A stretch of 64,000 bases of DNA, from the IMG/VR virus record IMGVR_UViG_3300032087_005453, positions 43,437 to 107,436 of that record; one strand, given 5' to 3'. Origin of the DNA: a virus. The position numbers and the translations under genes are program-made. The notes beneath the pieces were generated by a model, which was given only the letters and a program-made list of their open reading frames with translations, was not told the DNA's origin and did no database searches. Shown piece by piece: positions 57,270 through 62,506 of the stretch (position 1 is its first letter; the number at the start of each line of letters is the position of its first letter).

Positions 57270-57302
57270 GGACCGCGACAAAGCGGTCTTACAGGACCGC
57301 TT
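57270..57302 (+). repeat. Cassette-boundary double-hairpin element E1 (family A)
   Basis: GGACCGCGACAAAGCGGTCTTACAGGACCGCTT. Confidence 0.9.
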
Positions 57303-57361
57303 GTGTTTATGACTACCCTAAGAAATGTCCAGAAACTTTCCAGAAACTATGGAGAATAATC

Positions 57362-57389
57362 TGGACACGGTCGATGTATACACTATACT
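57362..57389 (+). promoter_or_regulatory. Early promoter P3
   Basis: TGGACA-N16 (cgGTCGATG...)-TATACT. Confidence 0.7.
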
Positions 57390-57441
57390 TCCCGTGTGAC
57401 ATGTGAGTCACGTTTCTTCCCTCTCTCTCAGGAGTGTTCAG

Positions 57442-57618
57442 ATGGATGACTTTTCTTCTCAGCTTCAGTGTGAAGATGTTTGTGGCGAAGCGGAATACTA
57501 TGCTGCTCAGGAATGGGCGGCAGAGTGTGAGCGTGAGCGACAGCGAGGACTTCAGGATCAGGAAGATCTCGGATGGCCAGAGTTCTGGCAAATGATTCGC
57601 GATCAGGCTACCAAGTAG
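57442..57618 (+). CDS. Small acidic protein, paralog 1 (MDDFSSQLQCED...)
   Basis: AGGAG RBS; paralog at 58550. Confidence 0.75.
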   Translation: MDDFSSQLQCEDVCGEAEYYAAQEWAAECERERQRGLQDQEDLGWPEFWQMIRDQATK

Positions 57619-57634
57619 CTCACCCATCAAGGCC

Positions 57635-57672
57635 ACCCGGAGCCTACAATCCGGGTCTCTTTCCCTCTCTTT
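57635..57672 (+). terminator. Hairpin followed by a pyrimidine tract
   Basis: ACCCGGA-gcctacaa-TCCGGGT then CTCTTTCCCTCTCTTTT. Confidence 0.4.
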
Positions 57673-57684
57673 TAAGGCTTTCAA

Positions 57685-57900
57685 ATGTTTGTAAAAACCT
57701 CAACTTTTGATGCGGCTCAGGCTTTCCCCGTTGATTCCGTGTGGCGGGATATGAACAACGACACCCTGAGAGTTCTGGCTGTTGATGAAAATAAAGTTTG
57801 GTTTTTCATGATGATCGAAGGAGTATGGGCTGACGTTTCCCCACAAGCGGTTGATGTTCAACAAGCGGTTGCCGATTGGATTCCAGTCAGGGGGGTTTGA
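57685..57900 (+). CDS. Small hypothetical protein
   Basis: AAGG RBS; ends just before E2. Confidence 0.65.
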   Translation: MFVKTSTFDAAQAFPVDSVWRDMNNDTLRVLAVDENKVWFFMMIEGVWADVSPQAVDVQQAVADWIPVRGV

Positions 57901-57919
57901 TTGCAAGGTGTTCCATAAG

Positions 57920-57952
57920 GGACCGCGACGAAGCGGTCCTACGGGACCGCTT
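57920..57952 (+). repeat. Element E2 (family A) with C(UACG)G tetraloop
   Basis: GGACCGCGACGAAGCGGTCCTACGGGACCGCTT. Confidence 0.9.
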
Positions 57953-58012
57953 GCGTTTGTGCTGTTCTTGGTAAATGTCCGAAAACTTTCCCATAAAGTT
58001 GGAGGAATAGTA

Positions 58013-58040
58013 TGGACATAGTCGATACTTATGATATAAT
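58013..58040 (+). promoter_or_regulatory. Early promoter P4
   Basis: TGGACA-N16 (taGTCGATA...)-TATAAT. Confidence 0.75.
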
Positions 58041-58084
58041 TCAAAGCCGTGTGACACCTCTCCCTCTTTCTTAGGAAATCTGAA

Positions 58085-58453
58085 ATGCGTATCTTCTTCA
58101 AAATTTTCGGCCTGTTCATCGCTGTTGGTCGCCAGTTTGGCAACTGCTTCGCACCCGCGTTGGTGCTGGAGTGGTACGGCGTTCGCCGTCGTGTTTCCTC
58201 TCATTCCCTCACTCGTCGGCCTGAGGCTCTTGATCGGCCTGAGGTGTTTTATCACCCCGCGTGGGCAAAATTCACCATCCGCACCAGCGGTCATGCGGAA
58301 ACCGTCATCTACTGGCGTGGGTGGTTCCGGTTTGGCTGGAATTCTGAGCACATTGCTCAGCGTTTCGGCAAGTGTGAAGACCATTCCAATTATGGTGGTC
58401 CGGTTGAATTTTATAGTTATCGGGGAATTCTTGGCACCCACCAAGCACTTTAG
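58085..58453 (+). CDS. Hypothetical basic/aromatic protein
   Basis: AGGA RBS after P4. Confidence 0.6.
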   Translation: MRIFFKIFGLFIAVGRQFGNCFAPALVLEWYGVRRRVSSHSLTRRPEALDRPEVFYHPAWAKFTIRTSGHAETVIYWRGWFRFGWNSEHIAQRFGKCEDHSNYGGPVEFYSYRGILGTHQAL

Positions 58454-58478
58454 GGGCCAAATAATTAAAGGGTTGGCC

Positions 58479-58506
58479 TGGACATGGTCGATATATATGG
58501 TATACT
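58479..58506 (+). promoter_or_regulatory. Early promoter P5
   Basis: TGGACA-N16 (tgGTCGATA...)-TATACT. Confidence 0.7.
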
Positions 58507-58549
58507 TCACTATCTGAAGTTGAGTTTCTTTTTGTTCGGGAGTTTTGAG

Positions 58550-58732
58550 ATGGATGACTTTTCTTGCCAGATTCAGTGTGATGAGATGGATGCTCAGGAA
58601 TACCACATGGCTCAGGAATGGGCCGCTGAGTGCGAGCGTGAACGGTGGGAACTTTGGGCGTGCGTTGACGCAGAATATCAGCGTGAGGAAGATTGGCAAG
58701 AATTTTGGGCGGAGGTGCGAGCTAATGCGTGA
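58550..58732 (+). CDS. Small acidic protein, paralog 2 (MDDFSCQIQCDE...)
   Basis: GGGAG RBS; shares AQEWAAECERER with 57442. Confidence 0.75.
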   Translation: MDDFSCQIQCDEMDAQEYHMAQEWAAECERERWELWACVDAEYQREEDWQEFWAEVRANA

Positions 58733-60838: not shown

Positions 60839-61027
60839 ATGAAAATGGACAGTAAAGAATTGCTCGAAAAAATCTTAGACGAATGGCACATGGCTCTGTA
60901 TGGCGATTTGGAACACGGTGTAGCGTGGCTGAACGAAAAAGCCTCAAATGAATTTGCGGAGAAGCATCCCAACCTTGTTAAGTTTGGGCAATGGTTAAGT
61001 GATCTGGAGAACGAAATAAATAGGTGA
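60839..61027 (+). CDS. Hypothetical protein
   Basis: AGGTGA RBS; DLEHGVAWLNE motif. Confidence 0.65.
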   Translation: MKMDSKELLEKILDEWHMALYGDLEHGVAWLNEKASNEFAEKHPNLVKFGQWLSDLENEINR

Positions 61028-61031
61028 CAGG

Positions 61032-61259
61032 ATGAAACTGATTGATCTGGCAATAAAAAAGTATCACGACCTAAAACGTGAAAAGCCAAATCTAACCAAG
61101 TCACAACTGGTTTACAATGCTGGTTGGGATGGTGCAGGCGAATGGACTTGCTGCTGTTGTGGGCGAATGATAGGTAAGAACCTAAAGGGCGAAAGTCCGT
61201 TTCTGATGGCCCGGCAGCATTCTGAAAACTGTGGTAAACTTTCTAACTTTGACGCTTAG
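61032..61259 (+). CDS. Small protein with putative Zn-finger (CCCCG...H...C)
   Basis: AGGTGA RBS; Cys/His cluster. Confidence 0.6.
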   Translation: MKLIDLAIKKYHDLKREKPNLTKSQLVYNAGWDGAGEWTCCCCGRMIGKNLKGESPFLMARQHSENCGKLSNFDA

Positions 61260-61269
61260 GAGAACTGAC

Positions 61270-61368
61270 ATGGATTACGAAGATCTGGCAATGGAATTAG
61301 CTATCTGGCCTTGGATTGATGATGATCTGGCCGGGGCGGAAGATCTTTGGGATGATTACGACGATTGA
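61270..61368 (+). CDS. 32-aa extremely acidic peptide
   Basis: AGGAG RBS; MDYEDLAMELAIWPWIDDDLAGAEDLWDDYDD, translated by hand. Confidence 0.6.
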   Translation: MDYEDLAMELAIWPWIDDDLAGAEDLWDDYDD

Positions 61369-61432
61369 AACTACCTCCCTGGGTAGGCACCGGATGGAAT
61401 GTAAGGCCGCCGGTGTCTACCCAACTCCTTAA

Positions 61433-61473
61433 TAATGACCGCGACGGAGCGGGGCCTGTGGCCCGCTCATGTA
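61433..61473 (+). repeat. Element E5 (family B)
   Basis: TAATGACCGCGACGGAGCGGGGCCTGTGGCCCGCTCATGTA. Confidence 0.9.
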
Positions 61474-61518
61474 TTTACGATTCTTTTCCTACAAAGTCCC
61501 AAAATTGTGCTAAAGGTG

Positions 61519-61546
61519 TTGACAAAGCATGTCGATATACTATAAT
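61519..61546 (+). promoter_or_regulatory. Early promoter P9 (consensus hexamers)
   Basis: TTGACA-N16 (aagcatGTCGATAtac)-TATAAT. Confidence 0.85.
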
Positions 61547-61570
61547 AAGGGAAAACAAAGGGAAACTAAA

Positions 61571-61798
61571 ATGTTCGGACTTACTGACAGACTATCAATC
61601 AGGCACGTTCCATTCAGAAATGGCTATACCGCCAGCGTAGCCAAGTATAGTGCTAGGGATTATGAAGTCGCCGTTAAGTTCAATGGCAAGGTGTGCTATG
61701 ATACCTCAGTAACAAACGATGTTGTTCGATGTGAAACCATTCAGGAAGTTACTAAGGTTCTGATTGAAGTTTCTGCTCTCCCTAAAAGAGAAGGTTAA
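61571..61798 (+). CDS. Hypothetical protein (MFGLTDR...)
   Basis: AAGGG RBS; F.NGY.ASV...YEVAV pattern. Confidence 0.7.
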   Translation: MFGLTDRLSIRHVPFRNGYTASVAKYSARDYEVAVKFNGKVCYDTSVTNDVVRCETIQEVTKVLIEVSALPKREG

Positions 61799-61802
61799 GT
61801 TG

Positions 61803-62033
61803 ATGAAAGTTGAGAAATACGCTTTCCCCGGTGGCTATCCTCTGTTCTACTATGTAGAATCTGACGATGGAAAGTTTCATTCCTGCCCGTCGTGCATCAA
61901 TCGCAACAGGGTGGGAAAGAATGTGACTCGATGTGATGGGCACATTAATTATGAGGATGACTCGCTTTACTGCGAAGTCTGTAACGAAGAAATTGAAGCA
62001 GCGTACGGAGAGAAGGTGTACAAAGATGTGTAA
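61803..62033 (+). CDS. Small Zn-binding phage protein (YAFPGGYPLFY, two CxxC)
   Basis: CPSC and CEVC; start reassigned. Confidence 0.7.
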   Translation: MKVEKYAFPGGYPLFYYVESDDGKFHSCPSCINRNRVGKNVTRCDGHINYEDDSLYCEVCNEEIEAAYGEKVYKDV

Positions 62034-62154
62034 CTTTTGCAGAGAAGAAAAGCAGACCGGGAGCCTTACCCTTTATCAGCGGGTTTTCCGGTTCTGCTCT
62101 GGCGAGTGTTTGACCAACTGGCTGAAATATTATCATTACAACGAGGAATGGTAA
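62026..62154 (+). CDS. Small TRASH-like Zn-finger peptide
   Basis: CNFC...FCSGEC; AAGGTG RBS. Confidence 0.55.
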   Translation: MCNFCREEKQTGSLTLYQRVFRFCSGECLTNWLKYYHYNEEW

Positions 62155-62155
62155 G

Positions 62156-62395
62156 ATGCAGGACGATGGCCCAAAATTCGTAAGTATGGCACAACAGAGA
62201 AGGAAAGAAATGGCAGACCGTAAGCTATTCCTAACCAAAGTTGAAAACCAGAGATTCAAGACTGCCGAAGTCAGAACACTGGGCACATTTATCGGGATCG
62301 CAAAATCTTGGGTGGATGATGACGGGATTGCCCGCTTTGAAGATCTCAACGGCGGGATCTGGGATGAACGTGATCTCAAGAACTTCGTCCTATAA
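62156..62395 (+). CDS. Hypothetical protein
   Basis: GAGG RBS; its TAA is the first three bases of E6. Confidence 0.65.
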   Translation: MQDDGPKFVSMAQQRRKEMADRKLFLTKVENQRFKTAEVRTLGTFIGIAKSWVDDDGIARFEDLNGGIWDERDLKNFVL

Positions 62396-62433
62396 TGACC
62401 GCGACGGAGCGGGGCCTGTGGCCCGCTCATGTA
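62393..62433 (+). repeat. Element E6 (family B; identical to E5)
   Basis: TAATGACCGCGACGGAGCGGGGCCTGTGGCCCGCTCATGTA. Confidence 0.9.
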
Positions 62434-62478
62434 ATTCGGAATCTTTTCTGAATAAGCCCTGTTTTTTAGCTCAAGTTA

Positions 62479-62506
62479 TTGACAAACATGGTCGATATAG
62501 TACAAT
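62479..62506 (+). promoter_or_regulatory. Early promoter P10, upstream of the tRNA-like gene
   Basis: TTGACA-N16 (aacatgGTCGATAtag)-TACAAT. Confidence 0.8.

What the first reader, a model, noticed from the sequence alone, without database searches (positions are those of the whole stretch)
57270..62506. Array of gene cassettes delimited by a conserved hairpin element plus promoter
Seen: six copies of GACCGCGAC-RR-AGCGG...CCGCTY (core starts 57271, 57921, 58991, 60105, 61437, 62397). Each lies after the last stop codon of a group of small ORFs and before a new promoter and RBS (the last before a tRNA-like gene). There are two subfamilies in blocks (A x3, then B x3; E5 and E6 identical over 41 bp), and paralogous ORFs recur in different cassettes. 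Established analogues: integron attC arrays and the promoter/stem-loop (PeSL) cassettes of T4-type phages. I do not recognise this particular element. Inference: a modular system for shuffling and co-regulating early host-takeover or anti-defence genes.
Basis: partly seen in the sequence, partly recalled or inferred. Interest (0 to 1): 0.85.

Follow-up and report, generated by a model that had tools for sequence, protein, structure and literature searches.

The report
Phage hairpin-plus-promoter gene cassette punctuation
Six copies of a conserved hairpin, each followed by a strong promoter, punctuate the fast-changing early-gene region of an uncultured marine phage, much like the known stem-loop/promoter modules of T4-type phages, though the hairpin's strictly conserved sequence is unexplained.

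Summary
There are six exact copies of GACCGCGAC-RR-AGCGG, all on the + strand (0.01 expected by chance), and none elsewhere in the 107-kb viral contig. Each copy lies after a stop codon and 82-93 nt upstream of a near-consensus sigma70-type promoter.

The element is a 12-bp hairpin with one bulged purine and an unpaired invariant 5' flank. I found 33 distinct versions in related marine metagenome contigs. The upper stem covaries, and G-U pairs fit only the sense strand. T tails are weak, so it is not a classic strong terminator.

Close relatives (88-95% identical) are collinear with the window but differ by about 10 small indels. Six of these abut a module edge, at the hairpin's 5' base or just after the -10. 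Four sit at ORF-ORF junctions with microhomology. One relative carries a chimeric hairpin exactly where a cassette is missing. In a relative with 81% terminase identity, almost all cargo genes differ but six hairpins persist.

No recombinase was found, and no integron features.

Verdict: a PeSL-like composite stem-loop/promoter module in a phage lineage with no detectable kinship to T4-type phages. The cassette idea is partly supported. The hairpin's sequence-specific partner is unknown. One tool (look-up of encoding contigs) was closed.

The parts
57271..57306 (+). E1, subfamily A element: unpaired GACCGCG flank plus 12-bp bulged hairpin (57278-57306)
   Evidence: 60.0 bits
57921..57956 (+). 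E2, subfamily A element
   Evidence: 62.6 bits
58991..59026 (+). E3, subfamily A element
   Evidence: 63.5 bits
60105..60140 (+). E4, subfamily B element; start of the 131-nt module repeat 60088-60218
   Evidence: 65.4 bits
61437..61472 (+). E5, subfamily B element
   Evidence: 67.6 bits
62397..62432 (+). E6, subfamily B element; starts 1 nt after the stop codon of ORF 62156-62395
57362..57389 (+). Promoter of module 1 (TGGACA-16-TATACT)
58013..58040 (+). Promoter of module 2 (TGGACA-16-TATAAT, TG-extended)
59084..59111 (+). Promoter of module 3 (TGGACA-16-TACAAT, TG-extended)
60187..60214 (+). Promoter of module 4 (TTGACA-16-TACAAT)
61519..61546 (+). Promoter of module 5 (TTGACA-16-TATAAT, 12 of 12)
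62479..62506 (+). Promoter of module 6 (TTGACA-16-TACAAT); drives the tRNA gene
58457..58506 (+). Half module: spacer and promoter of an A-type module whose hairpin and two upstream ORFs are present in relative L209 but missing here
57442..57618 (+). Small acidic ORF (58 aa), paralogue of 58550-58732
   Evidence: 47.5% aa identity, E 1e-12
58550..58732 (+). Paralogue of 57442-57618, in the next cassette
58725..58829 (+). 34-aa hydrophobic (probably membrane) ORF, paralogue of 59914-60021
   Evidence: 56% aa identity
59914..60021 (+). 35-aa hydrophobic (probably membrane) ORF, paralogue of 58725-58829
56200..56646 (+). HNH_3 endonuclease gene at the head of the array; a homologue sits at this position only in the clade that has the element
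62528..62663 (+). tRNA-Pro(UGG) gene with a 60-nt intervening sequence, transcribed from module 6

Best explanation
The six elements are the upstream halves of composite intergenic regulatory modules about 110-130 nt long. Each module has a conserved GC-rich bulged hairpin, an AT-rich spacer and a strong sigma70-type early promoter. The modules divide a rightward array of small early ORFs, and one tRNA gene, into separately transcribed units. This is the same design as the PeSL (promoter-early stem-loop) modules of T4-type phages.

Shown: the hairpin is real, it lies on the sense strand, and it is under selection. The module is the conserved unit, and the sequence on both sides of it varies. 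Some gains and losses of genes have junctions at or inside the element.

Inferred: on the sense transcript the hairpin attenuates or insulates read-through into the next promoter and protects the upstream RNA 3' end. It does not act as a strong classic terminator. The repeated modules, together with microhomologies at gene starts, act as passive substrates for the phage's general recombination, so ORFs and cassettes turn over quickly while keeping their own expression signals. The strict conservation of the 5' flank and lower stem suggests an additional, unidentified sequence-specific partner.
For: Six exact copies against 0.01 expected. A sigma70-like promoter follows nearly every family member by 80-260 nt, across 37 copies in 10 sequences. 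On 21 sequences the hairpin is 93.7% paired, with compensatory changes at pairs 16-37 (GC/AU) and 22-31 (UA/GC/CG). G-U is the commonest pair at 15-39, which fits only the sense strand. Slid controls pair 29-46%. All copies in each contig lie on the gene strand. Module edges coincide with 6 of 10 indels against a relative that is 88-95% identical. L210 has a chimeric hairpin exactly where one cassette is missing. In G001 (terminase 81% identical), six elements persist in the early region while only 1 of 25 window ORFs finds a homologue there. The architecture matches the published description of PeSLs (PMC2839356, PMC4122927).
Against: T tails are weak. All six score negative on a d'Aubenton-Carafa-type terminator discriminant, although I took that formula from memory. 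Several copies are preceded by another, non-conserved GC hairpin, so termination may not be the element's main job. Four of 10 indels are unrelated to modules, and enrichment at modules is not significant (6 of 10 against roughly 40% of junctions). Plain terminators do not need an invariant unpaired 5' flank that stays conserved between phages with no other nucleotide similarity. No transcript data exist, and the host is unknown.
Confidence: 0.6

Rival explanations
1. The hairpin with its invariant 5' flank is mainly a sequence-specific binding or cleavage site on RNA. A phage or host protein would recognise it, for example a processing endoribonuclease, an early-transcript shut-off factor, or a stoperator-like block to elongation. 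The promoter link and the recombination would then be secondary.
For: CCGC, ACG, AGCGG and CCGCT are invariant or nearly so across 33 distinct copies, while the upper stem and loop vary freely. The single bulged purine is conserved. In two G001 copies the stem changed in a compensating way (GAGCCGCC/GGCGGCTC) while the upstream CCGC stayed the same, so the flank is conserved for its sequence and not for pairing. T tails are weak. Other hairpins often lie just upstream, which makes a second terminator redundant.
Against: No candidate partner was identified, and there is no Rfam family match. The stem is only 12 bp, which is short for RNase III. This reading does not exclude the main explanation.
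Confidence: 0.22
2. The elements are dedicated recombination sites of an active cassette-exchange system, integron-like or nuclease-stimulated. The conserved HNH endonuclease at the head of the array is a possible driver.
For: The design is conserved punctuation with almost fully replaced cargo. Junctions fall at the first base of the element, and one chimeric element exists. A degenerate half-element plus a full element flank a 38-aa ORF in L209. The HNH homologue occurs only in the clade that has the element, and always at the same position.
Against: No tyrosine or serine recombinase and no Y1 transposase were found in the 107-kb contig, and no tyrosine recombinase in G001. Both records are incomplete (68% and 86%). 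There are no attC-type core sites, and every cassette has its own promoter. Many indels lie elsewhere, with simple microhomology. The HNH co-occurrence amounts to a single phylogenetic event.
Confidence: 0.08
3. The element is a small selfish mobile repeat (MITE- or REP-like) that inserts downstream of genes on its own.
For: It is a short structured repeat with many copies, found in phage contigs that share no other nucleotide similarity with the window.
Against: There are no terminal inverted repeats and no target-site duplications. No presence/absence polymorphism of the bare element was seen: where a copy is missing, adjacent ORFs are missing too. Orthologous copies are stable in position between relatives. 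No Y1 transposase was found. The strict strand and position bias fits a transcription-linked role.
Confidence: 0.04

Closest known systems
PeSL (promoter-early stem-loop) regulatory cassettes of T4-type phages (Arbiol et al. 2010, PMC2839356; Comeau et al. 2014, PMC4122927)
   Same: Both have a stem-loop just upstream of an AT-rich stretch and a near-consensus sigma70 early promoter. Both show sequence conservation over about 100 nt, are repeated between small ORFan genes in a hyperplastic region, have indels between close relatives next to the modules, and leave chimeric modules after a cassette loss.
   Different: The phage lineage has no detectable kinship to T4-type phages: only the terminase gives a distant family match and there is no nucleotide match in the phage database. 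The sequence is also unrelated. The hairpin is not a polyG/polyC stem. It is a bulged 12-bp stem with an invariant unpaired 5' flank, conserved between phages whose cargo genes differ almost completely. T tails are weak, and termination and mini-circles are untested here.
Rho-independent (intrinsic) terminators
   Same: A GC-rich hairpin after a stop codon on the sense strand. Four of the six pass a simple terminator scan.
   Different: There is no proper U tract, and the discriminant scores are negative. The sequence, not just the structure, is conserved. Another hairpin often precedes it.
Integron attC cassette arrays
   Same: A one-directional array of small genes separated by a structured repeat, with variable cargo.
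   Different: No integrase, no attI, no RYYYAAC/GTTRRRY core sites, each cassette has its own promoter, and the junctions are not precise at the repeat.
Mycobacteriophage stoperators and phage lambda nut sites (as functional analogies only)
   Same: Short asymmetric conserved motifs, oriented with transcription and repeated in intergenic spaces. nut combines a linear box with a hairpin.
   Different: No sequence similarity and no identified binding protein. The position is at the ends of units, upstream of promoters, rather than downstream of a promoter.

Membership tests
PeSL-type composite stem-loop/promoter module | Near-consensus sigma70-like promoter in the module | tested here: met
   10-12 of 12 hexamer matches with a 16-nt spacer at all six modules. 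A promoter follows nearly all family members.
PeSL-type composite stem-loop/promoter module | Stable stem-loop next to the promoter, upstream of an AT-rich stretch | tested here: met
   A 12-bp hairpin of -14 to -20 kcal/mol, 45-55 nt before the -35 hexamer.
PeSL-type composite stem-loop/promoter module | Many copies between small ORFs in a hypervariable region | tested here: met
   Six copies in 5.2 kb here and at least 11 in 11.6 kb in L209+L208. Synteny with relatives ends at about 56550.
PeSL-type composite stem-loop/promoter module | Indels between close relatives located at the modules | tested here: inconclusive
   Six of 10 indels abut a module edge and there is one chimeric element. 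Four of 10 lie elsewhere, and the enrichment is not significant.
PeSL-type composite stem-loop/promoter module | Measured terminator and promoter activity; mini-circles from recombination between modules | not testable with these tools
   This needs reporter assays and inverse PCR or read-level data.
PeSL-type composite stem-loop/promoter module | Belongs to a T4-type phage | tested here: not met
   No nucleotide match in the phage database. Capsid, portal-size and other large proteins have no PHROG match, and the terminase match is only distant.
Integron attC array | Tyrosine integrase (IntI) encoded nearby | tested here: not met
   PF00589 is absent from the 107-kb contig and from the 131-kb relative. 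Both records are incomplete.
Integron attC array | Core sites RYYYAAC / GTTRRRY and promoterless cassettes | tested here: not met
   The element consensus has no such sites, and every cassette has its own promoter.
Intrinsic terminator | GC-rich hairpin immediately followed by a U tract | tested here: inconclusive
   The hairpin is present. T-tail weights are 0.7-2.5 and all discriminant scores are negative, using a formula recalled from memory. Four of six pass a looser scan.
REP/RAYT or IS200/IS605-type hairpin repeat | Y1 (HUH) transposase in the genome | tested here: not met
   PF01797 is absent from the contig.
Any Rfam RNA family | Match to a curated covariance model | tested here: not met
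   No relevant match at E up to 1 in 54000-64000.

The most novel reading that the evidence does not exclude
The invariant 5' flank plus bulged hairpin is the recognition site of a clade-specific factor that actively drives exchange of promoter-equipped gene cassettes. That would be a phage-borne cassette-shuffling system that needs no integrase. The HNH endonuclease that always heads the array is the obvious candidate.
Probability: 0.08. Interest if true: 0.85.

Novelty: new variant of a known kind. Interest (0 to 1): 0.45.

Why it matters
PeSL modules have been described only in T4-type phages. Finding the same design in an uncultured marine phage clade with no detectable kinship to them suggests a general solution: a structured insulator joined to a strong early promoter, which lets phages swap small accessory genes without disturbing their neighbours. 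[quoted passage not shown] Its sequence constraint is not explained by termination alone, so there is a specific partner to look for.

Tried and rejected
1. Nucleotide search of the phage database with the array found no match.
2. The 16-mer scan of viral contigs gave only single hits, consistent with chance. The full-element pattern found nothing in IMG/VR.
4. An alternative anti-terminator pairing between the 5' flank and the 5' stem arm was rejected. It forms 6-7 bp in subfamily A and in G001, but only 4 bp in subfamilies B and C. In two G001 copies the stem covaried while the flank did not.
5. Integron, REP/RAYT and MITE readings were rejected.
6. No Rfam family matched.
7. A literature search for the motif strings returned only unrelated primers and aptamers.
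8. No comparable conserved module was found in the more distant clade with 62% terminase identity.
9. A sigma54-like box follows the hairpin in relatives but is not enriched in this window.
10. Resemblance to a CRISPR repeat, boxA or ops was considered from memory only and not pursued. The freely varying upper stem argues against repeat mimicry.
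Full report
**Setting.** The window is the last 64 kb of a 107,436-bp IMG/VR viral contig estimated to be 68% complete. Structural and packaging genes lie on the minus strand up to about 56058. These include a distant terminase large subunit and a sigma-factor gene at 55546-56058. From 56200 a plus-strand array of small genes starts with an HNH_3 endonuclease gene (56200-56646) and runs to the end of the contig. 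Its G+C content is 45-46%, against 32-43% for most of the window. No phage in the reference collection matches the array at the nucleotide level.

**The observation.** GACCGCGACRRAGCGG occurs six times with no mismatch, all on the + strand, at the stated coordinates. Shuffles expect 0.01. There is no further copy in the contig, either by pattern or by covariance model. Subfamily A (E1-E3) shares a 57-nt repeat. Subfamily B (E4-E6) shares a 131-nt repeat that runs through the promoter. Each copy lies 1-84 nt after a stop codon. Each is followed at 91-93 nt (A) or 82 nt (B) by a promoter matching 10-12 of 12 consensus positions with a 16-nt spacer. E6 precedes a tRNA-Pro(UGG) gene with a 60-nt intervening sequence, which ARAGORN finds only with its intron option. 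Two paralogous ORF pairs sit in different cassettes. One addition: promoters also occur without a hairpin (56781, 56992, 58479, 62987).

**Anatomy of the element.**
- A scan of metagenome contigs with the full pattern found ten contigs. A scan of genome contigs found one short contig binned as a Nitrospina MAG.
- With model R1, further diverged copies appeared in L134, in L214, and in the 131-kb relative G001 (terminase 81% identical). Together these give 33 distinct sequences.
- The consensus is G-R-CCGC-R-AC-G-R-AGCGG, then a variable upper stem and loop, then CCGCT-Y, one bulged purine, and three closing pairs.
- On 21 sequences the 12-bp helix is 93.7% paired, against 29-46% when the partners are slid. 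There are compensatory changes at two pairs. G-U is the commonest pair at one position, which is compatible only with the sense strand.
- All copies in every contig are on the gene strand.
- The 5' flank can pair with the 5' stem arm in subfamily A, but not in B or C. In two G001 copies the stem changed to GAGCCGCC/GGCGGCTC while the flank stayed CCGC. The flank is therefore conserved as sequence, not as a pairing partner.

**Is it a terminator?** A loose scan calls four of the six terminator-like. The T tails are poor, however, with weights of 0.7-2.5. All six score negative on a d'Aubenton-Carafa-type discriminant that I wrote from memory, so this result is only indicative. In relatives of subfamily C, the hairpin is followed by a second hairpin; in L212 that second hairpin is followed by a run of eight T. 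Many copies are preceded by a different, non-conserved GC hairpin: E4 and E5 here, and copies in L207, L214, L216 and L209. The element therefore behaves as the upstream boundary of the promoter module rather than as the upstream gene's own terminator.

**Does gene content change at the elements?**
- L209, extended with L208 (3 mismatches over a 7,415-nt overlap), is 88-95% identical to window 55461-63666 and collinear with it. The two differ by about ten indels.
- Three indels touch the hairpin's 5' edge or contain a hairpin. At 57250/57271 the relative has 637 bp where the window has 20 bp; the extra sequence includes one more element and promoter and ends at the first base of E1. At 58456/58457 a 410-bp block holds two ORFs plus a hairpin, and its loss leaves the half module at 58457-58506. 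At 62388-62395 an extra ORF sits directly before E6.
- Three indels begin just after a -10 hexamer (1-16 nt): 58053-58056, 61552-61557 and 62507.
- Four indels lie at ORF-ORF junctions, flanked by microhomology: ATGA-type start/stop overlaps, or a 24-nt repeat at the ribosome-binding region.
- L210 lacks exactly the cassette between two elements of L209. Its single remaining element has the left flank and first stem bases of one parent and the loop and right side of the other.
- In L209 a 38-aa ORF is flanked by a degenerate 5' half-element and a full element.
- L206 carries, inside cassette 4, a homologue of the gene that lies at 63688 in the window.
- At greater distance, G001 keeps six elements in its early region and nowhere else, while only one of 25 window ORFs finds a homologue there.
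- The module is therefore the conserved unit and the cargo turns over around it. Single-ORF indels at ordinary gene junctions are about as common. With ten events, the excess at modules is not significant: six observed, against roughly four expected if module edges make up 12 of about 30 junctions.

**Other systems considered.** No tyrosine or serine recombinase and no Y1 transposase was found in the contig, and no tyrosine recombinase in G001. Both records are incomplete. The element has no attC core sites, and each cassette has its own promoter, so the integron analogy fails. No Rfam family matches. The cargo is almost entirely ORFans. The only assignable family is an L5 gp82-like protein at 63013-63510, so a host-takeover or anti-defence role remains a guess. 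The HNH homologue is found only in the clade with at least 80% terminase identity, which is also the clade that has the element, while the sigma-factor gene is found in all relatives. This is suggestive, but it amounts to one phylogenetic event.

**Comparison with the literature.** PeSLs are described as strong sigma70-like promoters with an AT-rich upstream stretch and an adjacent stem-loop. They are conserved over about 100 bp, are dense in hyperplastic regions, lie next to indels between close relatives, and can recombine to form mini-circles (PMC2839356 and PMC4122927). The present modules meet every architectural criterion. They are not members by descent: the phage has no detectable kinship to T4-type phages and the sequences differ. 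They also differ in the strict sequence conservation of the flank and lower stem across phages that share no other nucleotide similarity, and in the weak T tails.

**Verdict.** The best reading is a PeSL-like stem-loop/promoter module (confidence 0.6). A real possibility is that the hairpin is also, or mainly, a specific protein-recognition site (0.22). A smaller possibility is an active, nuclease-driven exchange system (0.08). This is a new variant of a known kind, and the interest is moderate.

**Limits.** One tool, the look-up of encoding contigs, was closed. No read-level or transcript data were available. The host is unknown. The contig ends inside the array, while the relative L209+L208 shows at least three more B-type elements beyond that point.

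Noticed in passing
window 62528-62663: A tRNA-Pro(UGG) gene with a 60-nt intervening sequence in the anticodon loop. Default ARAGORN and Rfam miss it, and ARAGORN calls it only with the intron option. In relative L209 the same slot after the promoter holds a different 348-bp non-coding segment with a tRNA-like T arm and acceptor ends, which ARAGORN did not call.
   Followed up: partly
L235 (G001:C1:84000-103000), e.g. 5380-5394, 13017-13031, 16536-16604; also L207 1444-1460 and L212 about 340-356: Sigma54-like boxes (GGCAC-N5-TTGC) are strongly enriched in the early region of relatives (13 found against 1.8 expected). They often lie 25-60 nt after the hairpin. In G001 one also overlaps the hairpin's 3' flank on the opposite strand. 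This window shows no enrichment.
   Followed up: partly
window 60187-60214, 61519-61546, 62479-62506, 58479-58506; relatives L212, L214, L235: Early promoters across the clade share a conserved spacer motif, (G)TCGATAT(A/C)TA(T/G)G, just before the -10 hexamer, often with a TG extension. This suggests a clade-specific early promoter class.
   Followed up: no
L214 5990-6130 (minus strand) and L216 4140-4300: Between hairpin and promoter these relatives carry repeated CCTGTTCAYACT-like motifs. G001 carries TGYCAAAATGGCAG repeats in the same place. These look like lineage-specific operator-like sites.
   Followed up: no
L209 9846-10049 (minus strand; insert at window 58053-58056): A 204-bp non-coding insert directly after a promoter contains a GGTTCGATTCC T-arm-like sequence. 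ARAGORN does not call it. It may be a small RNA gene or a tRNA remnant.
   Followed up: partly
window 57625-57682 and 61375-61420: Other hairpins occur inside or at the ends of cassettes. One is CCCGGA...TCCGGG followed by a T/C-rich run. Another has 13-nt arms (one mismatch), GGGTAGGCACCGG...CCGGTGTCTACCC, just before E5. These are gene-specific structures distinct from the conserved element.
   Followed up: no
window 64000 (contig end): The contig breaks inside the array, while relatives continue with more B-type elements. The assembly probably stopped because of the repeats or because of population heterogeneity.
   Followed up: partly
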